A stretch of 64,000 bases of DNA from a virus. The position numbers and the translations under genes are program-made. Below the pieces are notes generated by a model. The model searched no databases. It saw only the letters and a program-made list of their open reading frames with translations, and was not told the origin of the DNA. How positions within the stretch are numbered: position 1 is the first letter of the stretch; the number at the start of each line of letters is the position of its first letter. Shown here piece by piece: positions 77-25,438 of this stretch. The stretch lies in the IMG/VR virus record IMGVR_UViG_3300026487_000001; one strand, written 5' to 3'.

Positions 77-87
77 ACAAACCCTAA

Positions 88-116
88 AGGGAGCCTCGCG
101 GGGTTCCCTTTTTCGT
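88..116 (+). terminator. Intrinsic terminator hairpin
   Basis: AGGGAGCC / GGTTCCCT stem (one G.U) 88-109, then T-run and the box CGTTTCT. Confidence 0.7.
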
Positions 117-135: not shown

Positions 136-960
136 ATGGCGGCCATAAGCTTGGATGACATTGGCTCTTTCGCCCAGCCTGCAAAAGCATCTGCGAAAAA
201 GAGTAAAGCGAAAGTTAAAGCTAAGACCACCGTCAAGAAAGCTAAGACAGTTAGCAAAGGCGTTAAGGTCAAGAAGAAAAAGAAGTCCGACCCTTCGAAA
301 GACGTGCTGCCTAAACACATTGATCCCGATGACTTCTATTCGGATATTGCAGCATCTCAAAAGGCAATGCAGTCTCTGGATGAACCAAAGCCCAAGAAAG
401 CTAAGAAAAAGAAAGAGAATGCAGTAGATACCATCAAAAAGAAAAAGAAGAAGAAAGAGTCACGGAGTTTGAGCACCGATATGGTTGCTCTTGAGGGTCA
501 GTTCCTTGAGGTTATGGCTGATGTGCCTGACGTTATCAAACAAGAGAACGACCAGATTGCCGAGTACATGACGATGTTCAAGCAGTGTCAGTCAATGGCA
601 CGTATCTGTGAAGACGCCTATAAGGACAAGAAGCAGAGCCGTGATATTTACGCACTGATGCAACTCTATAACCAGATGCGTGAGATTATCGCTGACCTTC
701 GTGCGCTGCGTGACGTGTCGCAACTGGCAGAGATTCTCAACGAAGAAGTCATGGGACCTTTCGCTGAGTCTGCTGGTACAATTCTGGTTGGCGTATTCCA
801 CCAGATTAACGCATGGAATAAAAAGAATCTGCCTGTTGAAATGATTGCTGGTGCGCAGAATCAGACGCAAACGATCATTCGTAACGCTGCGAAAGATATT
901 GAGCAAGCCTATCAGGCGGGTCTATCGAAGACAGTTCAGATATTTAGCGCGAGCGCCTAA
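136..960 (+). CDS. Lysine-rich protein (histone H1-like low-complexity N-terminus, helical C-terminal domain), function unknown
   Basis: 274-aa ORF, GAGGA RBS 7 nt upstream. N-terminal ~110 aa are K/A/V-rich (KKSKAKVKAKTTVKKAK...KKKKKKKESR). Confidence 0.75.
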   Translation: MAAISLDDIGSFAQPAKASAKKSKAKVKAKTTVKKAKTVSKGVKVKKKKKSDPSKDVLPKHIDPDDFYSDIAASQKAMQSLDEPKPKKAKKKKENAVDTIKKKKKKKESRSLSTDMVALEGQFLEVMADVPDVIKQENDQIAEYMTMFKQCQSMARICEDAYKDKKQSRDIYALMQLYNQMREIIADLRALRDVSQLAEILNEEVMGPFAESAGTILVGVFHQINAWNKKNLPVEMIAGAQNQTQTIIRNAAKDIEQAYQAGLSKTVQIFSASA

Positions 961-962
961 GT

Positions 963-971
963 CTGTAAATA
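963..971 (+). promoter_or_regulatory. CTGTAAATA motif copy 1 (candidate phage early/middle promoter element)
   Basis: Exact 9-mer in the 33-nt gap before the HNH gene. Same 9-mer recurs 6 more times on this strand. Confidence 0.45.
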
Positions 972-993
972 GAACTGTATTTAGGAGATCATC

Positions 994-1359
994 ATGGCAT
1001 ACAGACCAAAAGGCGGTATTGCAGCAAGAACTATGGGTGGTCGTGGAAGAAGTATGTCCACTTCTCAACGTCTTGCTGGTGTTACGGGATTTGAACGTGC
1101 TCGCGCTGGTACTCACGTTCGCATGGACAGGAGTGATTGGACACGTCTCAAAATGAGCATCATCGACGAGCGTGGACAACAATGTGAGCGCTGTGGTACT
1201 CGTACTCCACAACTCATTCTCAACCACAAAGTTGGTCATGCGCAGGGTGGTTCGAATATGAAACATAACCTCGAACTGCTTTGCTATGACTGCGATAACA
1301 ATCAGATCGGCAGTAACAACCGACGTGGTTCAAGACTGCTGCATGGAGGTAGACGGTGA
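994..1359 (+). CDS. HNH endonuclease-like protein
   Basis: 121 aa, AGGAG RBS. CERCG...LNHKVGHAQGGSNMKHNLELLCYDCDNN resembles the HNH Cys/His-Asn-His core. Arg/Gly-rich N-terminus. Confidence 0.6.
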   Translation: MAYRPKGGIAARTMGGRGRSMSTSQRLAGVTGFERARAGTHVRMDRSDWTRLKMSIIDERGQQCERCGTRTPQLILNHKVGHAQGGSNMKHNLELLCYDCDNNQIGSNNRRGSRLLHGGRR

Positions 1360-2138
1360 GTCGTTTGCAGAAATATGGCTCAGACGTGGGATTGGACTTA
1401 CGCAACTTTCCTGACTGCGTTAGCCCTGAGTACATCGAGGCTTGGGGTGCGTACATCTCAACACAAACAGCGGTTGACCTCTTTCATTCGCTACCACAAC
1501 CTCTTGGTATGCAGCGCGTTGTAGAAGGGTTTATTTCTTCTCTGGCTCGTAGCAGCACAACGTACCTGTTACGTCCTATCCCACCGATCACCAAGCACTC
1601 TCTTGAGCAGGCAAAAGCGCTTCTCAAGGTCCAACAGGCTGACTTGAAAAGATGGCTGCAACGTATTGAGTTCAGCAATAAGTTCAGGCTGGCTGAGGTG
1701 CATAGTCGAACCAACAGCGACTACAATCGGGTTGCTAACTGCATCAACACCACGATCGATATTTATCTGGTGTATGTACCGCAGACAACGCGTGGTGGTA
1801 TTCCGAAAGTAGGTGAGATACTGCACAAGCAGGTTCCTTACTGGTTTTCGAACAAACAGCCTAAAGCCTTGTTCAAAACTGATAATTTGACGAAGAAACT
1901 GGCAAAGTCTCCTCTGCCTGTTGTGCCAGACACTTACCCAACAATTCAACAAGTGATGCTTGCGCCTCGTGCTTGGCATCCGTGGAGTATTGATTTGGGA
2001 GTTGACTGTGCGCGGGTTAAGGGTAACGCTATTGCGCTGCATCTGCAATCGCGCAGGCTAACCTGCTTCCTGTCCACGTACAAACGTCATGCTGTGGAGA
2101 AGAGGCTCAACACTTTGGTCAAGAGCATTTTTATTTAG
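1356..2138 (+). CDS. Hypothetical protein
   Basis: 260-aa ORF, GTG start overlapping the upstream TGA, GGAGG RBS. Confidence 0.7.
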   Translation: MSRLQKYGSDVGLDLRNFPDCVSPEYIEAWGAYISTQTAVDLFHSLPQPLGMQRVVEGFISSLARSSTTYLLRPIPPITKHSLEQAKALLKVQQADLKRWLQRIEFSNKFRLAEVHSRTNSDYNRVANCINTTIDIYLVYVPQTTRGGIPKVGEILHKQVPYWFSNKQPKALFKTDNLTKKLAKSPLPVVPDTYPTIQQVMLAPRAWHPWSIDLGVDCARVKGNAIALHLQSRRLTCFLSTYKRHAVEKRLNTLVKSIFI

Positions 2139-2148
2139 GAGAAGAACC

Positions 2149-2643
2149 GTGATTGACGTAAACTCGCGGCTTCATACTCTTTTGAAGGGCATCGCAGATA
2201 GCGGTAAGCTGTATGCTGGTGCTGCCGAAGGAATCATGAAGTCCATCTCTCAAGCGCGAGAGCCTATCCAACTTCCGCAGTCAGTCATCGAACTGCTGGG
2301 TCGTTCAAACGTGCCGGATATCACACCGTATGATCAGGCTGACCTGCTTCTGATTATGGACGCTCTTGCGAAAGCATTGTTGTCTATTCAGAGCATCCCT
2401 GATACCATGCCGGTTGATGACGGTAAGTACGGCACGTATCTGTCCGAGTATCGTGCGCAGTATCAGACACTGACCAACGAACAACTCACGTCTGTGTTTA
2501 CGCGCGACAAGTTCGAAGGGCTTAGTCCTCTTCGTGCTTACGCATTAGCCGTTGTGCTATCGGATATCGCCGCAGACCGTCGCTTGCCTGTACCGAGCGT
2601 GTGGCAGTCTATGATTGACAACTATACCAAACTGGGTGAATGA
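2149..2643 (+). CDS. Hypothetical protein
   Basis: In-frame GTG at 2149 preceded by AGGAGAAGAACC. The longer track ORF (2089) would overlap the upstream gene. Confidence 0.65.
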   Translation: MIDVNSRLHTLLKGIADSGKLYAGAAEGIMKSISQAREPIQLPQSVIELLGRSNVPDITPYDQADLLLIMDALAKALLSIQSIPDTMPVDDGKYGTYLSEYRAQYQTLTNEQLTSVFTRDKFEGLSPLRAYALAVVLSDIAADRRLPVPSVWQSMIDNYTKLGE

Positions 2644-5600
2644 TGAATCAGATGATTAGTACGTCAGCAACGGCTACCCAGCAAATTGCCGATACGTTTA
2701 ATCAGGCACTTGCTATCAAGCCCTTGCCGCCCGAATTCGACGCCAAGACGTCGAAGATGTACGCGACAGGGAAGTCCCGTCGTAACTATGAGGCGCTGGC
2801 TGTATTCACCGCTTCTACCGTAGCTCGCATCTACGCGGCCTTCGACCTGATCAACTACATCGTTACTAACGGTGCAGAGTTCGAAGATATGCTGGAAGTC
2901 TCTCCTGACGATTTCGTTAAGCGCATCAAGAACAACGTCGAAGCGTCCTCGCTGAAAATCAACATGATGTTGAACGGCGATAAGCTGAGTCGTGAGATCA
3001 AGACCGCTCTGGCCGAGCATCTGTCTGCATCTTCTGGCGCTATCATCGAAAACAGTACGCGCTTCCCTGGCGGCAAAGACATTATCATGTCTGGTACTCC
3101 GTGCCCCACCAGCCCGCTGGCTTCGAACGGTAACTTCAACGTTCTGAACAATCAGGGTAGCGACCGTCCTCGTGTTGATAACGACGCGAACTTCGAAAGC
3201 GCCAACCTGCGTACCTACAGCTCCGATATTGCGCAGTCTGCAATTCGTGTGGCGAAGACTATCTATAAGGATATCTTTGGCACTGAGCGCACTAACGCCA
3301 ACGCATTCGATACGAAGATGATTCGTATCCCGCTCGACAAAGACTGGTCTGTGTATAACGCTGCTCTGCGTTCTATTCACCCATCAATGAACGGCATTGA
3401 TATTGACCTGTTCCGCAACTTGGAAAAATCCGTAGTTGACGGCCTGGGCGATTTCATGACAATCGGCATCCGCTCTATCCCCGGCAAACAGATGATTGAT
3501 CGCAAGCTGCAAGCGATGAAGATCAGTCACGATACGCCTGTCGATTTCAACGAAGTAGCACTGGCAACCGACATTCGTGTCGAAGGTGGCCTGATTGTTA
3601 ACTTCGAAAAAGAGCTGGTGGAGTATATCTCTCAGGGTGCTGACACTCAGACCATGTGTCTGTATCGTTGGTTCCAGGGTTGGGCGAGCTACTACTTCCG
3701 TGTTGCTGGTTCTACTCGTACTGGTATCACCCGTGCTGCTCGTATTCCGCGTTATGTGACTTCTGCCACTTCTCTTCCTGAGTTGAAAAAGCTGCGTGAG
3801 AAATTCGGCTACGTGGTTAACGACGTGGTTGCTGATGAACACGGTATGACTATCATGCCTAACGGTACGATGGCTGTGCTGCCTCGTCGTGAAGACATTG
3901 ACATTGAGATGGTTAAGACCTACGAAACCACGCTCAACGGTGTCCTCGAAGACCTGTTCGAAAAAGGTGTGCCGCTATCTACTGAGCACGACACGCTGCG
4001 TACCAACATGTTCGCTATCCAGAACGGTAATCTGGACTTCGACCGTGATGTGCAGACGAAAGCCAAATCACTGTCTCGTTTCAGTGACGTGTGCATCGGT
4101 ATCGACCCTGACTTCTCTCTGATCGTGAACACCTCGAACGGCGGCGGGCTGGCAGTTAACGAAACTCGTACTGTCGGCATGAAGTCACCTAACTCTCTGG
4201 ACGTTGCTGATGCTCTCGGCTACGACTTTGCGGAGCCGGGTGAAGCGCCTAACTTCCGTTCTGCTGCGAACGTGATTGGTAACATTTATCACAATCAGGC
4301 ATCTGGTGGTATGGCTCTGTTCCGTCCGTCGTATGACACGCTGATTGAAGCTGCCAAAGTTGAGTCCGGTAGCGGTAAGTTGGTTGAGAGTGTGAGTGAG
4401 TCCACGATCAAATACAACTCCACAGAAGGTTCTAACCTGCCTGAGCTGCTGAACATCATCGCGCAGACCTGCCAGACCTACGAGTTCATGCTCAAGAACA
4501 AACAAGTTCCTGACCTGAAAACGCTGGTGGAGAATGCACGTAAAGCAATCGGCATGGACGCAGAAGATGCGGCTCTGTCTGAAAGCCCGATGGACAAAGA
4601 CCTCTATGAGAATCTGATCGCTAACGACTTCTCGGTACCAGACCTGTCTAACGAGCGCCCTGCTCTGACGATGCTGCGTATCATGATTCGTGTGCTGAAC
4701 GATGCTGCTGGTCTGCGTGGTTCTAACCTGATTGCAACTTCCATGAGCGAGATGGGAAGCATTCAGGCTGCCACCGAATCACTGCCGTCTCACACCCACT
4801 ACTTTGTGATGGGTGAGAAGTCCAAGCTGTCTGACATGGCACGCCTTAACAACTACTTCGGTGGTGCGGTGTACCGTGAAATGGCGCAGTCGCTTGTACG
4901 CGCCGATCGCAAGAAATTGTTTAGTTCTCTGATTGAAAGCGAACAAGCTCCAGGCTCAGGTCGTCTGCAACAGATCATCCTGCCATTCGCTACGATGTAC
5001 AGCGATGTGATTCCTAAGTCTCTTGAGATTTTCGAATCGGCCGAGACTGAGATCGAACGCCTGAAACCTGACAGCGGTATCACCATTGATGATATTCGCA
5101 TCCCAGGTCTGAAAGACGGTGCAGCATTACTGCCGCATCAGGTCGAAGCGCACAAAACTCTGCGTCGTCGTCCGCGCTTTGCAACAATCTTTATCGCGCC
5201 TGGCGGTGGTAAGACAATCATCGGTCTGACTGATATTGCAGCCACAATCAAAGAGCTGGATGACTTAGGTGAAGAAGGCATTCGCCCTCTGATCATCTGT
5301 CCTTCCAACCTCGTAGCGAACTGGTGTGACGACCTACACAAAATCGTTGACGGCTGGAACGCAGTGCCTATTACTGCTGATACCGTGAACACGTGGGGCG
5401 AAGAACGTATGTACGACGTGATCTCTCAGTCACCTCGTAACACTATCTTCATCGTCGGCCTGAGCTATTTGCAAACTGGTACGTTCAACGTTGACATTGG
5501 CGGTGTGCGTGTTCGTGTGCGTGGTGCTGTAGAGTTCGTTAACCGCTTCAAGTTCAGCTATGTGCTGCTCGACGAGTCGCATAAAGTGAAGAACTTCTCT

Positions 5601-8489
5601 GGTGGTCAGGCTGGCTCTCAGGTTCACTTCAACACCAAAGCGGTGTTCACTGCTCCGTCCGTTCGCTATGCACGTATCGCTACTGGTACGCTGGTAACTG
5701 ACCGTGTGCGTGATATTGTTGGTCAGGCTGCACTGATGACGCCTGCTATGTTCGGTGACTCACTGGACGTTGCATATGACGGCGCGAAAGACGACATTGA
5801 AATGATTCGTCGTGCGCACTCACGTATGGCAAACCATACAGCGTTCATCTCGTTCAAGCGTAAGCATTGGGCGTTCATGCTGCCGAACCCGATTGATACC
5901 TTCATTCAGGTTGAGATCGATGATCCGTCAGTTCCAAACTCTGCGCTGCACCAGGAAGTGTATAACGCAATGTACGCAGAAGTGCTGGAGAAGTTGGACG
6001 AAGCTGCCAAGTCTGCGAAGAAGAAAGCCGGTAGCAGCGATGACGATGACGACGAAGCTGGTGGTGCAGAAGCCACGGCCGCTGACGATATTGACGAAGA
6101 CGAGATCGAAGAGGGTGATGATTTAGGCGCACTGCTGGCAAGCAACGCTGACCTGAACATGTACTTCCAGCGCATGGAAATGATGCTGACTGACCCGATG
6201 GGTGATGACGTTGCTCGCATGACGTTTGAAGCCGCTGGCGTTACCAACTTCGTTTCTGCGAAAGTGCTGACCATCATCGACCGTATTCGTAAGCACTTCG
6301 AAGTGCAGCCAGAACGCGACCGCATGATCGGCGAGCAACAGATCTTCGAATGGAAGCCAGGCGTAGAGCCGCGTGAACTGGACATTGCTGTCTATAACGG
6401 TCAGAAGTATCTGGCACGTAAGCAGTCCGAAGAGTTCAAGCGTCAAGCGCTGCCGCCTTCAATGGTTCCGCCTCCGGACGATCCGGACTACTGGAAGCCA
6501 GAAGTACAGGGCAAGTTGATTGTCTTTACGCGTTACGTTCGTGCAGCAAACGCCATCTACAACGCACTGCCAGCCAACTATAAGAAAGTTGCTGTGGTGT
6601 ATCATGGTGAAGTTGGTAAGCTGGGTCAGAACAAAGACGCTAACCTCGACGCATTCAAAACTGACAACAACGTCCAGATTCTGATTGCGAACGAGCAGGC
6701 AATCTCCGAAGGCCACAACATGCAGATGGGTAGCCGCATCATCCGCTGCGATACTCCGTGGTCACCGGGTACTTACGATCAGTCTACTGCGCGTATCTTC
6801 CGTCCTGACGTTGCTGCTGCGAAGCTGGACGAGAACGGTAAGCCGGGTGACATGGCTCGTGAAGTTGTGTTCATCGACTGGGTTATGACGAACAAGACCT
6901 TGGAGGTTGGTAAGGTTGCTCGTCTGATGTGGAAAACTCTGGAGAAGACTCGCTTCGACGAGAAAGGCAACCAGCGTTACGAAGCACTCGATCAGTACAA
7001 GCTCGACCCGATCAAAATGAGCGCGAAGCTGCTGATCGACAACAACACGATGGAAGACTTCGGTGACTACTTCCTTGCGAAGCGTGACCTGAACGAAATC
7101 GAATCTCAAGAGTTCCAGGAGATGCGCCGTACAACGGTTGCAGCAATGCAGGCTCTGCCAGCTACTCCGGCTCTGACTGACTTCCGCGTGATGGATCAGA
7201 CTCCGCTTGTTGCTAACCAGAAGATCCCTGATCGTAATGGCTGGGGCACTGAGCGTCTGTTAGATTGGGCGCGTAACCGTAACTTCACTAGCGGCGAAGG
7301 GCTGAAAGATTCTCTGAATCGTGCACCTGTCGTGACTGAGTTCGGTAACGGTGTTGTCGTGTCTGTGACTGTGCGTATGGTTGACGGCAAGCTGCGTGGC
7401 GATAGTCCTATCAGTACCGTTCGTGTTCGTCTGGCTGGCTCTGGTGAGACCGTTGCAATTCCTGCGACCAAAGTTCACATTGCCACTAAGGTAGACAAGA
7501 ACGACCTGAAACGTTTCTTTGAACAGCGTAAGCCGTGGGCGAACGAGAAAGATCGCAAACGTGCAAACGCAGAAGCTAACCGTGTTGAAGTTGAAGACAC
7601 CGTTGCTGATGAAACGCAGACGGCTGATACGAAAGAGACAGAGAAGAAGGTTGAAGCTCAGGCGCGTAAAGCTGCCCGTGCTGCCAAACGCGCTTCGAAC
7701 AAAGAGACTGGTAAGCCAATCAACGAAGGTGTTGAAGAAGCTGCCAAGAAAGTTCGTCGCCGTAAGTCTGCTGACCTGCCTCCTTTGGCTAACACTACGA
7801 CTCGTATGAAGCCTGGTGCGAAAGCTGTTGCAGAAGCGACTGGTGCTGATATGGCACTGGAGCTGACTCCTACCGTGTACAACGGATTTGTGGCACTGTA
7901 TGCGAACGCGACTGACCCTGATGCGAAAGCACTCAAGGACTTCGAGTTCGTTGAGTTCGGCGATTACGTTTACTACGACTGTGCGTACTACGCTGACTTT
8001 GAAGCGATGCTGGACTTCATCGAAGTTAAGAAGAAGCTGGAATTCGACCGTATGTCGGAGAAGCGTCTGGAGTTCGTACTGGACTTCTTTGACGAGTCTA
8101 CTCCGCGTATGGGCTTCAACGTCAAGCTGGCAACGAAAGGTCAAGAGCAACTGCCGAAGTTCTTCCTCGTTCGTCACAAGTCTGCCTCCGATAAGAAACA
8201 CGTCAAGGCATACCCGATGATCATGGAAGACAGACTGCGTATCATGTTCGACCTGAAGACCAACCCGCAGATGAAACGCTTCGTCGGCACGAAAATCCCG
8301 AACACTCGTAAGTTCGGTACGTTCGACCAGGCGCCAGGTATGTGGATTGGGTTCGTGAAGAATGCGGCTACTGCAAAAGCACGTATCAATAAGATCGTGA
8401 AAGCAGGCTACACCGTCACGAACATCAAGAAGGTCACTGGCGCACTCGACAAGTTGAAATTGACCATGTCGAAAAACAAATCAGTCTAA
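2640..8489 (+). CDS. Giant SNF2-family (SF2) DNA-dependent ATPase/helicase-like protein, 1949 aa
   Basis: LLPHQVEAH, Walker A IFIAPGGGKTIIG (~5197-5217), DESH box LLDESHKVKN (5571-5582), ILIANEQAISEGHNMQ, RCDTPWSPGTYDQSTARIFRPD. Acidic insertion inside the core. ~830-aa N-terminal and ~500-aa C-terminal regions carry no motif I recognise. Confidence 0.85.
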   Translation: MMNQMISTSATATQQIADTFNQALAIKPLPPEFDAKTSKMYATGKSRRNYEALAVFTASTVARIYAAFDLINYIVTNGAEFEDMLEVSPDDFVKRIKNNVEASSLKINMMLNGDKLSREIKTALAEHLSASSGAIIENSTRFPGGKDIIMSGTPCPTSPLASNGNFNVLNNQGSDRPRVDNDANFESANLRTYSSDIAQSAIRVAKTIYKDIFGTERTNANAFDTKMIRIPLDKDWSVYNAALRSIHPSMNGIDIDLFRNLEKSVVDGLGDFMTIGIRSIPGKQMIDRKLQAMKISHDTPVDFNEVALATDIRVEGGLIVNFEKELVEYISQGADTQTMCLYRWFQGWASYYFRVAGSTRTGITRAARIPRYVTSATSLPELKKLREKFGYVVNDVVADEHGMTIMPNGTMAVLPRREDIDIEMVKTYETTLNGVLEDLFEKGVPLSTEHDTLRTNMFAIQNGNLDFDRDVQTKAKSLSRFSDVCIGIDPDFSLIVNTSNGGGLAVNETRTVGMKSPNSLDVADALGYDFAEPGEAPNFRSAANVIGNIYHNQASGGMALFRPSYDTLIEAAKVESGSGKLVESVSESTIKYNSTEGSNLPELLNIIAQTCQTYEFMLKNKQVPDLKTLVENARKAIGMDAEDAALSESPMDKDLYENLIANDFSVPDLSNERPALTMLRIMIRVLNDAAGLRGSNLIATSMSEMGSIQAATESLPSHTHYFVMGEKSKLSDMARLNNYFGGAVYREMAQSLVRADRKKLFSSLIESEQAPGSGRLQQIILPFATMYSDVIPKSLEIFESAETEIERLKPDSGITIDDIRIPGLKDGAALLPHQVEAHKTLRRRPRFATIFIAPGGGKTIIGLTDIAATIKELDDLGEEGIRPLIICPSNLVANWCDDLHKIVDGWNAVPITADTVNTWGEERMYDVISQSPRNTIFIVGLSYLQTGTFNVDIGGVRVRVRGAVEFVNRFKFSYVLLDESHKVKNFSGGQAGSQVHFNTKAVFTAPSVRYARIATGTLVTDRVRDIVGQAALMTPAMFGDSLDVAYDGAKDDIEMIRRAHSRMANHTAFISFKRKHWAFMLPNPIDTFIQVEIDDPSVPNSALHQEVYNAMYAEVLEKLDEAAKSAKKKAGSSDDDDDEAGGAEATAADDIDEDEIEEGDDLGALLASNADLNMYFQRMEMMLTDPMGDDVARMTFEAAGVTNFVSAKVLTIIDRIRKHFEVQPERDRMIGEQQIFEWKPGVEPRELDIAVYNGQKYLARKQSEEFKRQALPPSMVPPPDDPDYWKPEVQGKLIVFTRYVRAANAIYNALPANYKKVAVVYHGEVGKLGQNKDANLDAFKTDNNVQILIANEQAISEGHNMQMGSRIIRCDTPWSPGTYDQSTARIFRPDVAAAKLDENGKPGDMAREVVFIDWVMTNKTLEVGKVARLMWKTLEKTRFDEKGNQRYEALDQYKLDPIKMSAKLLIDNNTMEDFGDYFLAKRDLNEIESQEFQEMRRTTVAAMQALPATPALTDFRVMDQTPLVANQKIPDRNGWGTERLLDWARNRNFTSGEGLKDSLNRAPVVTEFGNGVVVSVTVRMVDGKLRGDSPISTVRVRLAGSGETVAIPATKVHIATKVDKNDLKRFFEQRKPWANEKDRKRANAEANRVEVEDTVADETQTADTKETEKKVEAQARKAARAAKRASNKETGKPINEGVEEAAKKVRRRKSADLPPLANTTTRMKPGAKAVAEATGADMALELTPTVYNGFVALYANATDPDAKALKDFEFVEFGDYVYYDCAYYADFEAMLDFIEVKKKLEFDRMSEKRLEFVLDFFDESTPRMGFNVKLATKGQEQLPKFFLVRHKSASDKKHVKAYPMIMEDRLRIMFDLKTNPQMKRFVGTKIPNTRKFGTFDQAPGMWIGFVKNAATAKARINKIVKAGYTVTNIKKVTGALDKLKLTMSKNKSV

Positions 8490-8495: not shown

Positions 8496-8520
8496 AGGGG
8501 CTTCGGCCCCTCCTTCTTTA
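8496..8520 (+). terminator. Weak terminator / stabilising hairpin
   Basis: AGGGGC-TTCG-GCCCCT hairpin right after the SNF2 stop. Downstream T-tract is poor (CCTTCTTTA). Confidence 0.4.
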
Positions 8521-8535: not shown

Positions 8536-9102
8536 ATGCTGAACAAATTCTATCAGAAGCTACAGGTCATCATGACCATGCTTGGTCTGTACGACGGTGC
8601 CTGCGATGGCGTCTGGGGCCCGAAGTGTATCGAAGCTAAACGTAAGTGGGAGATGATGGACGAGTTCGAGCCAGCTACTCCTTCTAATGGGCTGCCGTTC
8701 AATGGTCGCGGTAAGCTGCCGAAGGGCATGAACTATGGCTACAAGACTCTTGATATCCTGTGGGATCAATGGGATCAAGAGAAAGCAGATGCAATCCTGA
8801 AGGATAAGGGTGCGTTGCTTACCACTGACGTTATTCACGAACACGCTGTTGGTGAAGTAGCTAAAGCGCGTCAGGCCGTAGAGGCAGAGCCGGTTGCTAC
8901 TGTAAATACTGTGTCTCAGGCACCTCTCGCTGCGTCTGTGATGGAGACTACTCCTGTTAAACAGGCTGAACCGCAACCTGAGCCGGAGCAGGAAGTAGAT
9001 GACGTCGAGGAAGAGGAAGAAGACGCCGACGACGAAATCACGGAAGAGAACACCTCACCTGCGCCTGTTAAGCAGAACAACTGGACCAACAAGAAACGTT
9101 AA
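8536..9102 (+). CDS. Protein with peptidoglycan-binding-like N-terminal motif and acidic C-terminus
   Basis: 188 aa. LGLYDGACDGVWGPKCIEAKRKWE resembles the PG_binding_1 signature. C-terminus EQEVDDVEEEEEDADDEITEE. Confidence 0.6.
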   Translation: MLNKFYQKLQVIMTMLGLYDGACDGVWGPKCIEAKRKWEMMDEFEPATPSNGLPFNGRGKLPKGMNYGYKTLDILWDQWDQEKADAILKDKGALLTTDVIHEHAVGEVAKARQAVEAEPVATVNTVSQAPLAASVMETTPVKQAEPQPEPEQEVDDVEEEEEDADDEITEENTSPAPVKQNNWTNKKR

Positions 9103-9111: not shown

Positions 9112-10254
9112 ATGCACGAAATCACTCTCCCGTCCGGCACTGTTGTGTCGGTCTCTGCTGCGAACAAAACGCAGATCGCCAACGCTGAAATCCTTTTCGG
9201 TAAGAACGCAAAACTTATCGTTAAGAAGATTGACGAGCTGGTTAAAATCAAAGAGCTGGACACTGCGAAGCTGTCCGCTGTCCTTGACCTGCTGAACGAC
9301 GCAGAAGCAACTACCGCTCTTGCGAAGAAAGCTGCTGGCAAGAATCTTGTCACTGCGATGAAGAACCTGTATAAAGCCAAGACGCTGGTGGCTACCATTA
9401 ACGGTCTTCGTGCAATCAAGATCAAAGCAACTGACCCGAACAAAGTCGTCGCTAAGCCTCGTGCTGGGAAGCCGCAGGCTCCGGTAACTACCGTAGGCAC
9501 GTTCTCTCCTGCGTACTCCAGTCTGATCAGAAGCGATGCGCGTGACTATGCGCCTGACTTCATCCGCGCTGTTGAGCCTGTTGCGGGTGCTGGTAAGTTC
9601 TTATATGCTTCCGGCAAGCAGTTCTCTTTCCAGTATAAGAAACTGGAAGTGGCTGTTGTCATGCAGCAGAAAGGCTGGTTGATGACCTTCGTCGGTGACC
9701 ATCTTAAAAAGGTCAAGAAGGTTCAGATTCATCTGGGCGAACTGCGTTCAATCAAAAACGTCATCAAACTGCTGGCCACCAAAGATGCAACTGACGCTGA
9801 GATTGCTGCGGCCGCTAAGAAAGGCGAGCGCACTGCCGCTGAACTTCGAATGCCTAGCACCAGCAACGCATCGAGCGCTAACGGCTATGACTTCCTGTAT
9901 GCTGCGCTGATGAAGGGTGGTGATGGTGAGAACGTAAGAGCTATGTTCAAAGCCATGCAACTGCCTGCGCCGAAACGTAGCGTGACTGCTACCGTTGCTA
10001 ACATGGGTGGTGATGAAGATTGCATCCTTGTGATGGGTGCCGGTAGCAAGACGGGTGTTGTGTTCGGACCGACTGCGACAATGACTGGCTCTATCAAACA
10101 GGCTCGTGGTCGTGGTACGTTCACTGTTGCCAAGTATGATTCGTCCGCGGGCGCACCGAGCGATCTGCCTAAGTCTGCATTTGAGCAGCTGGGTACATTC
10201 TCTGATTATCAGAGCGCGTATCAGGTGTTTCGTGCGACCGTATCTACGCTGTAA
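9112..10254 (+). CDS. Hypothetical protein (abundant early/middle product?)
   Basis: 380-aa ORF, AAGGA RBS, followed by a strong terminator. No motif recognised. Confidence 0.75.
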   Translation: MHEITLPSGTVVSVSAANKTQIANAEILFGKNAKLIVKKIDELVKIKELDTAKLSAVLDLLNDAEATTALAKKAAGKNLVTAMKNLYKAKTLVATINGLRAIKIKATDPNKVVAKPRAGKPQAPVTTVGTFSPAYSSLIRSDARDYAPDFIRAVEPVAGAGKFLYASGKQFSFQYKKLEVAVVMQQKGWLMTFVGDHLKKVKKVQIHLGELRSIKNVIKLLATKDATDAEIAAAAKKGERTAAELRMPSTSNASSANGYDFLYAALMKGGDGENVRAMFKAMQLPAPKRSVTATVANMGGDEDCILVMGAGSKTGVVFGPTATMTGSIKQARGRGTFTVAKYDSSAGAPSDLPKSAFEQLGTFSDYQSAYQVFRATVSTL

Positions 10255-10267
10255 TATTTAACCAAAA

Positions 10268-10290
10268 GGGTGCCTTCGGGTGCCCTTTTT
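10268..10290 (+). terminator. Intrinsic terminator
   Basis: GGGTGCC-TTCG-GGTGCCC (two G.U pairs) + TTTTT + CATTTCT box. Confidence 0.75.
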
Positions 10291-10349: not shown

Positions 10350-12218
10350 ATGGTGAAAATCAAGCACGTAGCTCTTGACTTCGATCCACCTGAACAGTTT
10401 GCTGACCAGCAGACGTATGACGGTGTTCGAATACTAAAACACATAAGTAAAAGTGCCAAAGGTGGTAAAGCACTTCTCGTCCTAGACCATATGCCTACCG
10501 AAGATTTGCGTAGCGGCAAAATATTCAGTAGTACGGAAGGTGAGTTGTTCCTGAATCAGATGCAGTATCTTGAAGATACGTTTCCGACCAAGACAACTCT
10601 TGACGACTGGAACTTCCTTGTTGTCTCGTACAACATGTTCAAGACGTATGACAAGGGCGAGCAGTTCAAAGAAGACGCAGACCAAGCGTTTGCGGATCGT
10701 ATTCGTGATTTGATTGTTGAGTACAAGCCAGACTATGTTCTGACTTTCGGCAAAGCGCCGTTCAAAGCACTGAACAGCGAGAAAATACAGTTCTCGAAAG
10801 ATCACTACGAGCACTGGTACGGTGTTGAGATTCCAACGAAGGTGAAGTACGACGGTAAGAAGCACAGCTTTATCCATGTGCCGAACGTCAGCTATCACAC
10901 CGTGTTGAACCCGATGCACATCAAAGGTTCATCGTATACGTTAGGCTACATGGCTCGCTGGATGTTGCCGTGGCTTAACAAGGGGATGCGCTATAAGATC
11001 GATGAAGTTACGTGTGGTAAGAAGCGTAACTGGGACCTCGTGTATGTAACGAAGGTCAAGCAACTTGAGAAAATCTTGAAGCGTATGAAGCGCGCCAAGA
11101 AGGTTGCAGTCGATACCGAAACAGAGAACCTGAATCGTATTAAGAATAAAATCTTGACGGTGCAGTTATCATCTGACGGTCAGAAGGCGTATGTTGTTCC
11201 TATCTATCACCGTGACAGTCCATTCAGTCCGAAAGAACTGCGTAGGGTAAGTGAGTTGTTCAAAGATTATTTCGAGGACAACGATAACAAGTATCAAATC
11301 TACACCAACGCGAAGTTCGACCTGAACGTAATGCGCTCTAACTTCGGCATTCGTAGTTATGCAGCAAACGTTTGGGATATTCAGGCGGGTGAGTTTGCGT
11401 TCGATGAAAACGCCAAGTCGTTGTTGAACGTTACCGGTAGCGGTTATTATAACTTGGCTAACCTGACGATGCAGTTTGGTTGTCAGGTGTACCACGAAGT
11501 GTCGTTCGGTAAAGAGATGCGAGCGACAATCGCAGACGTTGACCTCGACGAATCGGTGCAGGAGTATGCGGGTCTCGACGTTATCGTTCCGTTCCGTATT
11601 GCAGAGCAACAGCAAAAGCGAGCCAACGATATTAAATACAAGAAGTATGAGTCGATGGTCAGTGAGCAAATCTCCGACCAGATTCATGCGTTCTCGATTC
11701 TTGAAACGACAGGTGCAGGCGCAGACATTGATTACCTGTTTAAGCTCAACCTACCGAACAGCCCTATCAACGAAGAAATTCGAAACGTAGAGCGTGAGTT
11801 CATGAACAGCCCTGAGGTTAAGGCTGCGAACAAGGTTATTTGCAAAGACGACAATGTTCCTAAGATGGGTCTTATGGGCAAAGTCGAAGTGACCAAGTTC
11901 GATATGTCGAAGTCGGAACACAAACAGATTCTGTTCTTCGATGTGATGAAGCTCAAGCCTCTGAAAGAAGGGGAACAGTTACGTGAGAACGGCAAGAAGG
12001 CGGGTAAGCTCGACAAGGACTTCCAGGCAGCGTATGCTGATATACCGCTTGTGTCCCTCTACACCAAACTCGGTAAAGCGTACAAGCTCAAGAACGCCTA
12101 CGTTAACAGCCTGCTCAAGCTCTGGGGTGAATCAGAAGACTTCAAACATGACCGTTCAATCAGACCGACGTATGGTTATCTTGGAGTTGTAACGGGTCGT
12201 ACAAGCGCTAGTGATCCT
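10350..12218 (+). CDS. Family-A DNA polymerase, exon 1 (UDG-like N-terminal domain + 3'-5' exonuclease + first part of polymerase domain). 3' boundary model-dependent (12218 or 12234)
   Basis: Exo I VAVDTETENL (~11103-11132), YAGLDVIV, then ...VTGRTSASDP. The frame then runs into RLGFM-stop (TAG 12234-12236). Confidence 0.85.
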
Positions 12219-13438
12219 AGATTGGGCTTCATGTAGGAAACTGCATGTCGAAAGCTACCTAAACGGGGAAGAGCCTTACGCAGCGAATGTGTAAGGAGAA
12301 CCTACCGTGCTAAATGTCGGAAACGACTAAAAGCCTAACGACTATCCCGCGAGGGAGTAGAGTGACAAGCAAATGGTCACGCGAAATGGTAGCGTCCTAA
12401 GTTCTCGTTTGAGTCTGATATGCAAGCGCGTCAGACGAGAGAATAAGTCTATTCAGAATATTTTCAGAAATACCTCATTTGGGACTTGTTGACGATAATT
12501 AAAATGTATCATCGACAAAAGGTTCCATGAGGCAAATATGAAAAAAGTAAAAACGACCGTGAAGAAAGGCCGTGCTATTGCGCTCGTTGCAGAGCAGCAT
12601 CCTTTGCCGAAATATCTGAAACACTATATCGAAGCATGGGCGCCTAAATTCCTTCACGATCATCCAAACGTAAGCACTGCGTATTCACTAACCAACTTCA
12701 AATGTTGGAAGTCATACAGAGAGAACATCTTTGTCCATAAGACAGGTGTGTTCTTGATTGTTAGTGACGAAGGTGAAGTGCGTTTGACGATTGGGCGCAA
12801 ACATCCAAAAGGTTATTTATCTTTATGGATTCGCGGACCTCTTGCGCATCGTGTAGTTGCTACTGTTTGGAAGAAAAACAAACATCCTGAAACAAAGCCT
12901 ATGGTAAACCATCTTGATGGTATCAAAACAAACAACTGTGTTGATAACCTAGAGTGGTGCAGTAACTCACGCAATATTCTTCACGCCAGAGAGATGGGTT
13001 TGAACGTATATAATAAACCTACATCAGGCAAGAAGATTGGCGGACAGCGAAAAGGTGCATCGAAATACTTTGGTGTTCTCTTTGAGAAAGGTCGTCAGAA
13101 GTGGGTGGGCTTAGTGAGACACAACAAAATTGTTTATGGTCGTAGACGCTTTGACACAGAAGAAGCCGCAGCGATTCATTACAACAACGTGTGTGACCTG
13201 CTGGGTATTGATGATAAACCGAGAAATGATTTTCCGAAACAGAAGATTAAGAAAATCAAGAAAGGTAAAACTACAATACGCATGATTGGTTCAGGTGAGC
13301 ATTTGTTTTCTATTACTGAATAGCGGACTTGATATAGTCTCTTCCACATCGGTAAACGGTGTGGTGGTGTGTAAGACGAGGACTGTTGGTACTCGCATCA
13401 TCAGGGCGTGTGTTGCGAACACGTTTTAAGACCACAAA
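12219..13438 (+). mobile_element. Group I (IA2, T4 td-like) self-splicing intron with embedded homing endonuclease gene. Exact ends uncertain
   Basis: CTAAACGGGG 12258-12267. CCGTGCTAAATGTCGGAAACGACTAAAA 12305-12332. GNRA-capped hairpins at 12316-12327 and 12345-12356. GATATAGTC 13331-13339. P7 candidate GACTA 12325-12329 / TAGTC 13335-13339. Splits a conserved PolA motif. Confidence 0.75.
12538..13323 (+). CDS. HNH (I-HmuI-like) + AP2-domain homing endonuclease, intron-encoded
   Basis: [28 protein letters not shown] (HNH_3-type). [44 protein letters not shown] (AP2-type). GAGG RBS. AT-richer codons than neighbours. Confidence 0.85.
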
Positions 13439-14740
13439 AATCTCCAACAGGTACCGTCTCGTAGTGAGATGGGTAAGTTGATCAAACGTATTCTGATTGC
13501 GCGTAAGAATCGCCTGCTTATCAAGGTCGACTACTCGGCGCACGAAGTTCGTGGTTGGTCAATCATCTCAGGTGACCAGGGCGTTGCAGACGTATTTGAG
13601 CAAGGCCGTAAGCTGCGTCATCGTTTCCGTACAGTACCGGACCCATGGATTGAGCACCGCGTCGAAGCTGAGGGTGACGTTCACAAAATCAACGCCGCTT
13701 ACTTCTTCGGTATTCCAAACGTAATGGACGTAACCAAGTCCGTACGTAACGCGGTTAAGACCGTAATCTTCGGCCTGATCTATCAGCAGGGTGATAAAGG
13801 TCTTGCGAAGTCAACAGGGCGTGAAGTGTCTGAGATTGCAGAAATCAAAGGCAAGTTCTTAACACGATTCCCGGTAGGCTTAAAATGGTTCGATAAGATT
13901 AAGAAGTTTGCACATGAGAACTTCTTTGTTGAGTCGCCGGTTGGTCGTCGTCGCCATCTATGGGGCCTGATGTTACCTGAGTCGCATCGTGAAGCCAATA
14001 TGGTTCATGCAGCGTGTGACCGCCGTGCGGTAAACAGTCCAGTTCAGGGCTTCGGTTCTGACCTGATGATGTCCGCGATTCGTATTCTGGACCGTATGAA
14101 GTATGAGTATTGGAAAGCGAACGGCGAGTACCCTGACTTTGACATGAACGTATCTGTACACGACTCCTTGACCGTTGACTGCGATTACAAATGGATCTTC
14201 CTTGCGCTCGATATGATCGAACGTGCGATGACCAGCGCAGTGGTCGAAGTTGTGCAGAAGCGTCACGAAGGGTTTGAGTTCACGTCCGTACCTGAGATTG
14301 ACTTTGAAATCGGTGCGTCAGAGAAAGACGTGCAGGGTTGGAACTTCTCTTACGTTCAACTCAGGAAGCTCATTAAAGACGGACTTGAGATTAAGCGTGA
14401 CGAGCTGGGTGAGAAAGACCTCGATGTTGAGAAGACACTGGACAGCATTATGGAAGACCAGTATCATCTCATGTCCGATTGGATGAAGAAACAGCTTTGG
14501 GCTAACGATATTAAAATTCGTAGCATGGACAAAGTTAATCCTCTCACCAACAAGGACAAGAAGAACATCAAGGAGTGGCTGGCAGAACTTCCGAAGAACA
14601 TTAAAACGTTCGAGAAGTACAAAGCGGAAGAAGCTGCGAAGAAAGCCGCTGCATCTACAGAGGGAGCCGCGCCTAAGAAGAAAATCAAACTCAGTAAGTC
14701 TATGCTCAAATCTGCTCTTAAGGGGATTGCGAAAAAATGA
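13439..14740 (+). CDS. Family-A DNA polymerase, exon 2 (motifs A, B, C). 5' boundary model-dependent (13439 or 13431)
   Basis: NLQQVP + 30 aa + DYSAHEVR (motif A), RNAVKTVIFGLIYQQG (motif B), VHDSL (motif C). Conserved sequence starts upstream of the first ATG (13469). Confidence 0.85.
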   Translation, partial: NLQQVPSRSEMGKLIKRILIARKNRLLIKVDYSAHEVRGWSIISGDQGVADVFEQGRKLRHRFRTVPDPWIEHRVEAEGDVHKINAAYFFGIPNVMDVTKSVRNAVKTVIFGLIYQQGDKGLAKSTGREVSEIAEIKGKFLTRFPVGLKWFDKIKKFAHENFFVESPVGRRRHLWGLMLPESHREANMVHAACDRRAVNSPVQGFGSDLMMSAIRILDRMKYEYWKANGEYPDFDMNVSVHDSLTVDCDYKWIFLALDMIERAMTSAVVEVVQKRHEGFEFTSVPEIDFEIGASEKDVQGWNFSYVQLRKLIKDGLEIKRDELGEKDLDVEKTLDSIMEDQYHLMSDWMKKQLWANDIKIRSMDKVNPLTNKDKKNIKEWLAELPKNIKTFEKYKAEEAAKKAAASTEGAAPKKKIKLSKSMLKSALKGIAKK

Positions 14741-25413: not shown

Positions 25414-25438
25414 AGGAGGGCTTCGGTCCTCCTTTTTT
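25414..25438 (+). terminator. Intrinsic terminator
   Basis: AGGAGGGC-TTCG-GTCCTCCT hairpin + TTTTTT. Confidence 0.75.

What the first reader, a model, noticed from the sequence alone, without database searches (positions are those of the whole stretch)
2640..8489. 1949-aa SNF2-family ATPase as the largest gene of the replication block
A complete SNF2-type motor lies at about 5130-6810: Q-like LLPHQ, GGGKT, DESH, motif V EGHNMQ and motif VI QSTARIFR. It is split by an acidic insertion (SSDDDDDEAGGAEATAADDIDEDEIEEGDD). About 830 N-terminal and 500 C-terminal residues flank it with no motif I recognise, apart from a K/R/E-rich stretch around 7500-7800. Phage SNF2 proteins of this size are rare. 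The gene is co-oriented and translationally coupled (ATGA) with two small unknown genes upstream. Its role is open. It could be a nucleoid or defence-protein remodeller, a replication-fork or transcription translocase, or an injected protein.
Basis: partly seen in the sequence, partly recalled or inferred. Interest (0 to 1): 0.65.

Follow-up and report, generated by a model that had tools for sequence, protein, structure and literature searches.

The report
Giant SNF2 motor, probably virion-carried
The largest gene in this Erwinia jumbo-phage window encodes a 217 kDa SNF2 DNA-translocating ATPase flanked by two large modules of unknown fold, and because its Pseudomonas-phage homologue is a visible component of purified virions, it is more likely a motor delivered with the DNA than an ordinary replication helicase.

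Summary
ORF 2640..8489 (+) encodes 1949 aa with every SNF2 motif at the stated coordinates, the acidic insert and the ATGA overlap. The window is an Alexandravirus (Erwinia jumbo phage), and the protein is 100% identical to phB78 "DNA helicase".

New findings:
- The N-terminal 830 aa fold confidently (pLDDT 86.5) into a fold with no PDB match. It occurs only in about 80 clusters of collinear giant proteins.
- The C-terminal 520 aa are basic and also unmatched.
- The ATPase motifs are conserved family-wide, and inteins sit in Walker A and motif V of some relatives.
- The PaBG homologue gp202 (30% identity, full length, syntenic) is band 1 of the published virion gel.
- In phiRSL1 and BcepSaruman the gene lies between the connector and the head protease and major head protein genes.
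- Against this, the operon carries a promoter-like motif (CTGTAAATA) shared with the PolA, clamp and ligase genes, not the motif upstream of structural genes.

Best reading (about 0.45): an active dsDNA translocase packaged in the head and ejected with the genome. Rivals are an intracellular replication/transcription remodeller or an HNH-linked packaging helper. It is not DarB-like. I rate it a new variant of a known kind, with moderate interest.

The parts
86..111 (+). Terminator-like hairpin (11-bp stem plus T-run) that closes the preceding unit, 24 nt before gene 136
   Evidence: the same GGGxGCCTTCGGGxxCCC-T-run architecture recurs at other operon boundaries
136..960 (+). First gene of the unit (274 aa, phrog_23026, unknown function). 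Conserved in the same position in AD1 (gp179), PaBG (PaBG_00198) and the Xanthomonas phage
963..971 (+). Promoter-like motif CTGTAAATA, 22 nt before the HNH start. The same exact 9-mer precedes the PolA, clamp, small polymerase-like and NAD-ligase genes
   Evidence: 7 exact hits, all on the + strand, against 0.38 expected
994..1359 (+). Small HNH endonuclease (121 aa). Always upstream of the giant SNF2 gene in AD1, JA11, PaBG, Xanthomonas PhiXhv-16, phiRSL1 and BcepSaruman
1356..2138 (+). Small gene (260 aa, phrog_38822, unknown function). Conserved in JA11
2150..2643 (+). Small gene (about 164 aa from GTG 2150, phrog_31715), translationally coupled (ATGA) to the SNF2 gene. A conserved neighbour in JA11 (1e-32) and PaBG_00201 (1.4e-5)
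2640..8489 (+). Giant SNF2-family ATPase gene, 1949 aa, 216.8 kDa, pI 5.8. Full-length member of phrog_21391
2640..5129 (+). N-terminal module (residues 1-830): compact mixed alpha/beta fold, acidic (pI 5.1), no TM segment, no catalytic-looking conserved constellation. An orphan fold confined to this family
   Evidence: pLDDT 86.5, pTM 0.78; no PDB match; BFVD: family members only; 80 collinear hits
5127..6809 (+). SNF2 ATPase core (residues 830-1390): Q motif, Walker A GGGKT, DESH, TGT, motif V and motif VI, all conserved at 85% or more across 74 family members
6033..6122 (+). Acidic low-complexity insert between the two RecA-like lobes. It lies in the least conserved stretch of the core (residues 1101-1200 have a net charge of about -21)
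7242..7529 (+). Small beta-rich domain (residues ~1535-1630, pLDDT ~80-87) with a weak Tudor/SAWADEE/KOW-like barrel resemblance only
   Evidence: probability ~0.7, E>0.2: not significant
7545..7709 (+). K/R/E-rich single long helix (residues ~1636-1690)
7857..8459 (+). C-terminal alpha/beta domain (residues ~1740-1940), strongly basic at the end (net +16 over the last ~100 residues). Conserved out to the Xanthomonas and BcepSaruman homologues
8496..8511 (+). Terminator-like GC hairpin 7 nt after the SNF2 stop. It closes the unit before the next genes and PolA
8536..9102 (+). Downstream gene (188 aa), homologous to PaBG_00203 'putative lysozyme' (31% identity, 2e-15). No Pfam or PHROG hit here

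Best explanation
The gene encodes an enzymatically active SNF2-type, ATP-driven double-stranded-DNA translocase (not a strand-separating helicase). The motor sits between two family-specific modules: an 830-residue acidic N-terminal module of orphan fold, and a 520-residue basic C-terminal region made of a beta-barrel, a long charged helix and a basic alpha/beta domain. The most likely life history has three steps. First, a few copies are built into the head during assembly. Second, they leave the virion with the 260 kb genome at infection. Third, the motor works on the incoming phage DNA before any phage protein has been made. It could help reel the long genome in, or it could strip host DNA-binding, restriction or defence proteins or stalled RNA polymerase from it. 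By analogy with N4 virion RNA polymerase, the flanking modules would serve encapsidation/ejection and DNA or partner binding. What is shown: the SNF2 identity, conservation of the catalytic motifs, the orphan status of the flanks, family distribution and synteny, and virion presence of the PaBG homologue. What is inferred: virion presence in this phage, ejection into the cell, and the specific task after entry.
For: (1) SNF2 core. Pfam SNF2-rel_dom plus Helicase_C. The family profile hits SsoRad54 (1e-16), Rad54, ISWI, DDM1, RapA and ZorD, and only in the core. All catalytic motifs are conserved at 85% or more in 74 members that are only ~22-30% identical elsewhere. Canonical inteins (Cys...His-Asn) sit inside Walker A (GGGK|T) in 5 representatives and inside motif V in 2 (LAGLIDADG domain in P0019), which is typical of indispensable active sites. 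(2) Virion association of a homologue. PaBG_00202 is the full-length, syntenic homologue (BLASTP 29.7% identity over 1968 columns, 726 bits; tblastn; context). Its computed mass of 221,159 Da equals band 1 (221,161.95 Da, 'gp202') of the Coomassie-stained SDS-PAGE/MALDI proteome of CsCl-purified PaBG particles (PMC7412058). (3) Head-module linkage. In phiRSL1 and BcepSaruman the homologue (ORF129 and gp088, phrog_62) lies between connector/HNH and the head maturation protease, ATPase and major head protein. In Alexandravirus and PaBG the upstream half of this linkage (connector...HNH...SNF2) is kept, and the whole window is a co-oriented, mainly structural cluster. (4) Architecture. A central enzyme sits between large non-enzymatic modules. 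The N-terminal module is confidently folded, has no match in the PDB, and is found only at the N-terminus of these giant proteins. The C-terminus is basic, pI 9.5. N4 vRNAP has the same layout, an N-terminal injection region, a central enzyme and a C-terminal encapsidation region (PMC5512222). (5) Precedent. P1 DarB, a head-packaged SWI2/SNF2-containing protein encoded next to the portal gene, acts in cis on injected DNA.
Against: The virion evidence is for a homologue only 30% identical, from a single gel-band table. The authors did not discuss it, and no copy number or ejection data exist. No proteomics for any Alexandravirus, Y3, Lu11 or phiRSL1 could be read here. A DNA-bound enzyme could be carried into heads passively. 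The operon's only recognisable promoter-like element (CTGTAAATA at 963) belongs to the class that precedes the PolA, clamp, ligase and recombination-endonuclease genes. A different motif (TAATTTCA) precedes tail-sheath and head genes, which suggests co-expression with DNA-metabolism genes. In three lineages the gene lies one or two genes upstream of PolA. No capsid-targeting or protease-processing signal was identified, and there is no membrane segment. The mechanism after entry is entirely inferred.
Confidence: 0.45

Rival explanations
1. An intracellular DNA-transaction remodeller. The protein works in the infected cell alongside the replication/recombination or transcription machinery: Rad54/UvsW-like branch or fork remodelling, or RapA-like recycling of host RNA polymerase (these phages depend on host RNAP). 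Its presence in PaBG particles is incidental carry-over on packaged DNA.
For: It shares the CTGTAAATA promoter-like motif with the PolA, clamp, ligase and recombination-endonuclease genes, which differs from the motif upstream of structural genes. It is adjacent to PolA in Alexandravirus, PaBG and the Xanthomonas phages. Iyer et al. 2021 proposed that jumbo-phage Snf2 ATPases act in recombination or with RNAP (PMC7824862). There is a weak Tudor/KOW-like barrel, and RapA is among the profile hits. phiRSL1 has a sigma-70-like promoter directly upstream of ORF129.
Against: The phage already encodes a UvsW-type helicase in the replication cassette. A Coomassie-visible 221 kDa band in CsCl-purified particles is more than trace carry-over. 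In phiRSL1 and BcepSaruman the gene sits between the connector and the protease/major head protein, far from replication genes. About 1350 residues of family-specific non-catalytic modules are unusual for a fork or RNAP remodeller. The RapA model scores 11.5 bits against a cutoff of 576.
Confidence: 0.3
2. A genome-maturation/packaging helper acting with the conserved HNH nuclease. The SNF2 motor translocates along concatemeric DNA to clear bound proteins or branches ahead of the terminase, or it delivers the HNH nuclease to its cutting sites. It ends up trapped in the filled head.
For: The HNH, small ORF(s) and SNF2 gene order is conserved across every lineage examined. The genes are linked to connector/head genes. 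Small HNH proteins next to packaging genes are known terminase cofactors (established knowledge of HK97-like phages). This would explain both the virion presence and the DNA-metabolism-type promoter.
Against: The large terminase gene is elsewhere (PaBG_00108). No interaction evidence exists. Conservation of the small HNH could simply reflect a stable homing-endonuclease site. Nothing here distinguishes this reading from the best explanation except where the ATPase is used.
Confidence: 0.15
3. A DarB-type anti-restriction polyvalent protein: a head-packaged methyltransferase-helicase dyad that modifies incoming DNA in cis.
For: It is a giant, SNF2-containing protein, a homologue is in virions, and the gene is near head genes, as with P1 darB next to the portal gene.
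Against: There is no methyltransferase or any other second enzymatic domain in the window protein or in 24 diverse relatives. There is no significant BLASTP similarity to P1 DarB (best E=0.59). DarB falls in a different PHROG (phrog_1685, against phrog_21391 and phrog_62).
Confidence: 0.05

Closest known systems
Pseudomonas phage PaBG gp202 (PaBG_00202) and the phrog_21391 family (Alexandravirus, Salmondvirus, Yoloswagvirus, Baikalvirus, Lu11, phage NCTB)
   Same: Full-length collinear homologues of 1930-2050 aa with the same three-part architecture and the same gene order (HNH, small ORFs, SNF2, small ORF, PolA). PaBG gp202 is band 1 in the virion gel.
   Different: Only about 30% identical to PaBG gp202. 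No member has been studied functionally, and all are annotated merely as 'DNA helicase', 'RuvB helicase-like' or hypothetical.
phiRSL1 ORF129 / BcepSaruman gp088 family (phrog_62)
   Same: Sister family of giant SNF2 proteins (about 1535-1625 aa) in related jumbo phages. The core and the extreme C-terminal domain align, and the Motura homologue's N-terminal model matches the N-terminal fold weakly (E 9e-7, TM 0.33). An HNH gene lies upstream.
   Different: The N-terminal region is shorter and barely alignable by sequence. The gene is embedded in the head module (followed by the head protease and major head protein) rather than followed by PolA.
P1 DarB and other 'polyvalent' virion-delivered proteins (Iyer et al. 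2017, PMC5512222)
   Same: A giant phage protein containing a SWI2/SNF2-type ATPase, encoded next to head genes, with virion packaging (shown for DarB; shown here only for the PaBG homologue). The likely site of action is the incoming DNA.
   Different: No adenine methyltransferase or any second enzymatic domain, no sequence similarity to DarB, and a different PHROG. It fails the defining 'several disparate activities in one polypeptide' criterion on present evidence.
Coliphage N4 virion RNA polymerase gp50
   Same: The same design logic: a central nucleic-acid enzyme flanked by a ~1000-residue N-terminal region (injection) and a large C-terminal region (encapsidation), in a giant packaged protein.
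   Different: The enzyme is unrelated (a single-subunit RNAP against an SNF2 ATPase). There is no homology, and the roles of the flanks here are untested.
Prokaryotic SNF2 ATPases: SsoRad54-like (PDB 1Z63), RapA, and the defence-system motors DrmD, ZorD and DpdE
   Same: The same catalytic core and presumably the same dsDNA-translocation chemistry.
   Different: Hits cover only the core and lie far below the family cutoffs (for example DpdE 34 against 500 bits, RapA 11.5 against 576). The accessory domains and genomic context are different.

Membership tests
SNF2/SWI2 family of SF2 ATPases | Two RecA-like lobes recognised by SNF2-rel_dom (PF00176) and Helicase_C (PF00271) above the gathering score | tested here: met
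   PF00176 27.9 bits (cutoff 24.9) and PF00271 31.9 bits (cutoff 23.5). 23 of 25 and 25 of 25 diverse relatives match. The family profile hits SsoRad54 at 1e-16.
SNF2/SWI2 family of SF2 ATPases | Intact catalytic motifs: Q, I (GxGKT), II (DExH), III, V and VI (QxxxRxxR) | tested here: met
   PHQ 832-834, GGGKT 855-859, DESH 978-981, G1016-T1017, E1357/G1358/N1360/Q1362 and Q1381/R1385/R1388 are conserved at 85% or more in 74 members.
SNF2/SWI2 family of SF2 ATPases | dsDNA-stimulated ATPase with translocation but no strand separation | not testable with these tools
   Needs a biochemical assay (ATPase with dsDNA and ssDNA, triplex displacement, unwinding).
phrog_21391 (giant jumbo-phage 'DNA helicase') | Full-length match to the family profile | tested here: met
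   E=0, 2808.9 bits, residues 4-1947 against profile positions 42-2021 of 2021. PaBG gp202 matches the same profile at 3230.9 bits.
Virion (head-packaged, ejected) proteins | Physical presence in purified particles | tested here: inconclusive
   Shown only for the PaBG homologue (band 1, PMC7412058). No proteomics for this phage or its genus could be found.
Virion (head-packaged, ejected) proteins | Gene embedded among, and co-regulated with, late morphogenesis genes | tested here: inconclusive
   Synteny with connector, protease and major head protein genes supports it. The promoter-like motif class matches DNA-metabolism genes, not structural genes.
Virion (head-packaged, ejected) proteins | Transfer into the host cell at infection | not testable with these tools
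   Needs labelled-virion or early-infection proteomics.
DarB-like methylase-helicase dyad / polyvalent proteins | N6-adenine methyltransferase (or another disparate enzymatic domain) fused to the SNF2 module | tested here: not met
   No such domain in Pfam, NCBIfam or PADLOC for the window protein or for 24 relatives.
DarB-like methylase-helicase dyad / polyvalent proteins | Sequence relationship to P1 DarB | tested here: not met
   BLASTP best E=0.59. DarB is in phrog_1685, not phrog_21391 or phrog_62.
RapA (RNAP-recycling SNF2) | Match to the RapA equivalog model, including the N-terminal RNAP-binding domains | tested here: not met
   NF003426 scores 11.5 bits against a cutoff of 576, over lobe 2 only. 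The N-terminal model has no PDB match, RapA structures included.
Defence-system SNF2 motors (DISARM DrmD, Zorya ZorD, Dpd DpdE, PLD-helicase) | Score above the family cutoff and the system's partner genes nearby | tested here: not met
   Scores of 17-36 bits against cutoffs of 500-1500, covering lobe 2 only. The neighbours are phage head and replication genes.

The most novel reading that the evidence does not exclude
A virion-borne SNF2 motor is co-ejected with the DNA, anchors at the entry site through its orphan N-terminal module, and actively reels the 260 kb genome into the cell. It may clear host DNA-binding or defence proteins as it goes. This would be a new class of enzyme-driven genome internalisation, distinct from the transcription-driven entry of T7 and N4. 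It would also explain why this jumbo-phage lineage, which lacks a virion RNA polymerase, keeps a 217 kDa packaged ATPase.
Probability: 0.12. Interest if true: 0.85.

Novelty: new variant of a known kind. Interest (0 to 1): 0.55.

Why it matters
Jumbo phages of the PaBG / Lu11 / phiRSL1 / Alexandravirus lineage have no virion RNA polymerase and no phage nucleus. How they protect and start up a 260 kb genome in the first minutes of infection is unknown. A conserved, catalytically intact SNF2 translocase that travels in the virion would be a concrete candidate for that step, whether by DNA pull-in, clearing host proteins, or countering restriction and defence. It would also extend the short list of enzymes that phages deliver together with their DNA.

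The 830-residue N-terminal module is predicted confidently yet matches nothing in the PDB, so it is a clean target for structural work. At a practical level, the universal database label 'DNA helicase' is probably misleading twice over: SNF2 enzymes translocate rather than unwind, and this one may not be a replication protein at all.

Tried and rejected
1. Sequence-level annotation of the flanks found nothing outside the SNF2 core. This covered Pfam on five sub-fragments at E<=10, NCBIfam, PADLOC, PDB phmmer, and a family-profile hmmsearch against the PDB. The one weak hit, VMAP-M20 at 17 bits, is below its cutoff and was ignored.
2. Foldseek on the C-terminal model returned no significant hit. 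The Tudor/SAWADEE/KOW-like barrel (E>0.2) is kept only as a weak hint.
3. Foldseek on the N-terminal model returned no PDB hit. The top hits, AcrB-type efflux pumps with TM<0.1 and rmsd>40 A, are noise.
4. The DarB hypothesis was tested directly and rejected as family membership.
5. The 'split helicase' of the Dickeya JA phages (Day et al. 2018) is a different gene. JA11's copy of this gene is intact.
6. Searches for proteomics of closer relatives (Y3, Lu11, phiRSL1, BcepSauron, P. putida and Xanthomonas jumbo phages, Alexandravirus) found nothing readable.
7. The word-indexed homologue search with the single protein, and again with the diverse alignment, returned only the same 27 close relatives and no informative names. 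The exhaustive HMMER search was the one that reached distant members.
8. An Rfam scan of the PolA insertion gave no intron-family hit.
9. The generic sigma-70 promoter scan was no better than chance (7 found against 8.0 expected).

Full report
**1. What is there**

The window is a piece of an Erwinia jumbo phage of the genus Alexandravirus. The 5850-nt query is 99.8% identical in DNA, and 100% identical in protein, to 'DNA helicase' XJP11767 of phage phB78. It is 84-97% identical to about 45 other Erwinia and Dickeya jumbo phages.

ORF 2640..8489 (+) is the longest ORF of the window at 1949 aa, 216.8 kDa and pI 5.8. The ATGA overlap with the upstream gene is real.

**2. Anatomy of the protein**

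*Core.* Pfam recognises only SNF2-rel_dom (854-987) and Helicase_C (1290-1388). A profile of 25 diverse family members hits only Snf2-family structures in the PDB (SsoRad54 at 1e-16, Rad54, ISWI, DDM1, RapA, ZorD), and only within the core. In an alignment of 74 family members that are about 22-30% identical outside the core, all catalytic motifs are conserved at 85% or more.

Twelve longer relatives carry large insertions. In five representatives these are canonical inteins (Cys start, His-Asn end) exactly inside Walker A (GGGK|T), and in two they are inside motif V. The Yersinia phage copy has a LAGLIDADG domain. Inteins persist at indispensable catalytic sites, so the ATPase is functional and important. 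It is not a decayed structural relic.

The acidic insert lies between the two lobes, in the least conserved stretch of the core.

*N-terminal 830 residues.* There is no hit in Pfam even at E<=10, nor in NCBIfam, PADLOC or PDB sequences. With a 23-sequence alignment, AlphaFold2 gives a compact, confident mixed alpha/beta model with mean pLDDT 86.5 and pTM 0.78. Foldseek finds nothing in the PDB: best E 0.35, probability 0.03, TM<0.1. In the viral BFVD library it finds only two unnamed entries with a near full-length structural match (TM 0.75-0.77), which I take to be family members, and more weakly the Motura 'helicase'.

An exhaustive HMMER search of 1.84 billion representative proteins finds 80 hits. 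Nearly all are 1850-2750 aa, with the match at the same N-terminal position. So the module exists only in this architecture. Its deeply conserved positions are mostly G, P, W and Y, with few polar residues (D147, Q332, R386, E429, D491) and no recognisable catalytic constellation. There is no membrane segment. I read it as a non-enzymatic scaffold or interaction module of orphan fold.

*C-terminal 520 residues.* This region is basic (pI 9.5, against about 5.1-5.2 for the rest). The model is of medium quality overall (pLDDT 68), but it has three confident parts:
- a small beta domain at about 1535-1630;
- an alpha/beta domain at about 1740-1940 with a very basic tail.

Foldseek gives no significant PDB match. 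A Tudor/SAWADEE/KOW-like barrel appears only at E>0.2. The extreme C-terminal domain is conserved out to the Xanthomonas and BcepSaruman homologues.

**3. Family and context**

The protein is a full-length member of phrog_21391 (E=0). phrog_62, the second hit, turned out to be the phiRSL1 ORF129 family, a sister family of 1535-1625-aa giant SNF2 proteins. All members found are from jumbo phages of one broad lineage, or from metagenomic relatives: Alexandravirus, Salmondvirus, Yoloswagvirus, Baikalvirus/PaBG, Lu11, NCTB, the Xanthomonas PhiXhv phages, phiRSL1, Motura, and BcepSauron/Saruman.

Gene order is conserved. A small HNH endonuclease and one or two small ORFs always precede the SNF2 gene. 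The small gene that is translationally coupled to it (2150..2643, phrog_31715) is kept in JA11 and, weakly, in PaBG.

In phiRSL1 and BcepSaruman the gene lies inside the head module, in this order: head-tail connector, HNH, small ORFs, SNF2, two small ORFs, head maturation protease, ATPase, virion structural protein, major head protein. In Alexandravirus the same protease-ATPase-major-head-protein block lies about 37 kb downstream on the same strand. A replication cassette (PolA, clamp, UvsW-type helicase and others) and tail genes lie in between. So the window is one co-oriented, mostly structural supercluster, and the SNF2 gene sits at the boundary between the connector/HNH genes and the embedded replication cassette.

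**4. The key external fact**

The PaBG paper (PMC7412058) lists as band 1 of the structural proteome of CsCl-purified particles (SDS-PAGE, Coomassie, MALDI) a protein of 221,161.95 Da: gp202, 'RuvB helicase-like protein'. PaBG_00202 is the full-length syntenic homologue of the window protein. BLASTP gives 29.7% identity over 1968 columns and 726 bits. Its computed mass is 221,159 Da, and the sequence in the paper's supplement matches my translation.

A homologue is therefore physically present in virions at Coomassie-visible level. The authors did not comment on it. I could not read proteomics for any closer relative (see the tried-and-rejected section).

**5. Counter-evidence from regulation**

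The three strongest terminator-like hairpins of the first 10.5 kb lie in intergenic gaps at 86-111, at 8496-8511 (7 nt after the SNF2 stop) and at 10264-10289. These delimit a unit 136..8489 that is insulated from PolA.

Within that unit, the exact 9-mer CTGTAAATA lies 22 nt before the HNH start. The same 9-mer occurs 7 times in the window, always on the + strand, against 0.38 expected. Five copies lie 16-39 nt upstream of start codons: HNH, PolA, the clamp, a small polymerase-like gene, and the NAD-dependent ligase. In AD1 it precedes the same genes plus a recombination endonuclease. PaBG has ACTGTAAATG before PolA. phiRSL1 and BcepSaruman have GTAAATAG directly before their SNF2 genes.

A different 8-mer, TAATTTCA (6 hits against 1.67 expected, + strand only), lies upstream of tail-sheath genes and of the ATPase that precedes the major head protein. 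Both motifs were chosen after looking at the data, so the statistics are optimistic. Still, the pattern suggests that the SNF2 operon is co-regulated with DNA-metabolism genes rather than with the bulk of the structural genes. This keeps the intracellular reading alive.

**6. Most likely mechanism**

*Shown:* an intact SNF2 motor. By established knowledge of the family, that means an ATP-driven translocase on duplex DNA that remodels protein-DNA complexes and does not unwind. It is embedded between two large family-specific modules, one acidic and of orphan fold, one basic. A homologue is in virions, and the gene is linked to head genes.

*Inferred:* a few copies are packaged in the head and leave with the DNA. 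The motor then acts on the entering genome before phage proteins exist. It could help internalise 260 kb of DNA, or it could strip host nucleoid, restriction or defence proteins or RNA polymerase from it. The design resembles N4 virion RNAP, with its N-terminal injection region, central enzyme and C-terminal encapsidation region. The general idea resembles P1 DarB (PMC5512222). P1 darB likewise sits next to the portal gene.

I put about 0.85 on 'active SNF2 translocase', about 0.55 on 'virion-associated in this phage', and about 0.45 on the combined statement.

*Rivals:*
- An intracellular replication, recombination or transcription remodeller, with incidental packaging (0.30).
- An HNH-linked helper of concatemer processing or packaging that gets trapped in heads (0.15).
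- A DarB-type anti-restriction dyad (0.05, and rejected as family membership).

**7. Comparison with known families**

Membership in the SNF2 family and in phrog_21391 was tested and met.

DarB/polyvalent membership was tested and not met. There is no methyltransferase or second enzymatic domain in this protein or in 24 relatives. There is no similarity to DarB, and DarB is in a different PHROG.

The RapA and defence-motor models (DrmD, ZorD, DpdE, PLD-helicase) match only lobe 2, at scores 10-50 times below their cutoffs. The protein works like a packaged DNA-acting enzyme but belongs to none of the characterised packaged-protein families.

**8. Novelty and verdict**

The sequence and its family are already in the databases under an uninformative, and probably misleading, name. 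One homologue's virion presence is published but unremarked. What is new here:
- the link between that datum and this family;
- the head-module synteny;
- the orphan, confidently folded 830-residue module;
- the intein evidence for an essential ATPase;
- the two promoter-like motif classes.

I rate it a new variant of a known kind, namely virion-delivered nucleic-acid enzymes and phage SNF2 motors. Interest is 0.55. It is not categorically new, but it is a concrete and testable candidate for the unexplained first minutes of infection in jumbo phages that lack a nucleus and a virion RNA polymerase.

Noticed in passing
window 10350..14740 (insertion ~12203-13444; HNH ORF 12538..13323): The family-A DNA polymerase gene is split in this window into 10350..12236 (628 aa) and 13469..14740 (423 aa). 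A ~1242-bp insertion carrying an HNH homing-endonuclease ORF separates the two parts. It sits exactly inside the conserved 'SASDP|NLQQVP' motif. phB78 and AD1 have one uninterrupted ~3170-nt gene. This is probably a mobile group I intron or a free-standing homing-endonuclease insertion. Rfam gave no intron hit.
   Followed up: partly
window 963, 8900, 10302, 14951, 20837, 40609, 60664 (+ strand): The exact 9-mer CTGTAAATA occurs 7 times, on the + strand only (0.38 expected). Five copies lie 16-39 nt upstream of DNA-metabolism genes (HNH, PolA, clamp, small polymerase-like gene, NAD ligase). It is conserved in AD1 and phB78, with related forms in PaBG, phiRSL1 and BcepSaruman. It resembles the T4 late-promoter box TATAAATA and is a candidate phage promoter class.
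   Followed up: partly
window 23699, 38679, 47163, 47872, 49309, 53424 (+ strand): The 8-mer TAATTTCA occurs 6 times, on the + strand only (1.67 expected). Four copies are intergenic, upstream of structural genes (tail sheath-like, a 638-aa protein, the ATPase before the major head protein, tail sheath). It is a candidate second (late?) promoter class. The motif was chosen post hoc.
   Followed up: partly
homologues P0019, P0042, P0079, P0100, P0102 (Walker A); P0056, P0093 (motif V); P0074 (near DESH): Inteins of about 400-520 residues interrupt the SNF2 ATPase of several relatives at catalytic motifs, including the Yersinia phage fHe-Yen9-02 copy (2458 aa, LAGLIDADG domain). The window copy is intein-free.
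   Followed up: partly
window 86-111, 8496-8511, 10264-10289, ~25415-25440, ~34470-34495, ~52345-52375, ~55690-55715: A recurring intergenic hairpin family (GGGxGCC-TTCG-GGCxCCC followed by a T-run, often then CGTTTCT) marks operon boundaries throughout the co-oriented cluster. PaBG has the same type of hairpin.
   Followed up: no
window 9112..10254: This 380-aa ORF between the SNF2 unit and PolA matches AD1 gp173 (325 aa) at 91% identity over the first 105 residues but only 52% over a later stretch of 126 residues, with different lengths. It is a locally hypervariable gene with no Pfam or PHROG hit.
   Followed up: no
window 8536..9102: The gene just after the SNF2 terminator is homologous to PaBG_00203, annotated 'putative lysozyme' (31% identity, 2e-15). 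No lysozyme family is detectable here by Pfam or PHROGs, so the PaBG label is unverified.
   Followed up: no
homologue P0010: An 82%-identical copy is recorded from a 266 kb contig labelled Salmonella enterica serovar Infantis. The PaBG paper also mentions a PaBG-related viral genome in an S. Infantis assembly. This suggests an Alexandravirus-like jumbo phage carried in, or contaminating, a Salmonella isolate.
   Followed up: no
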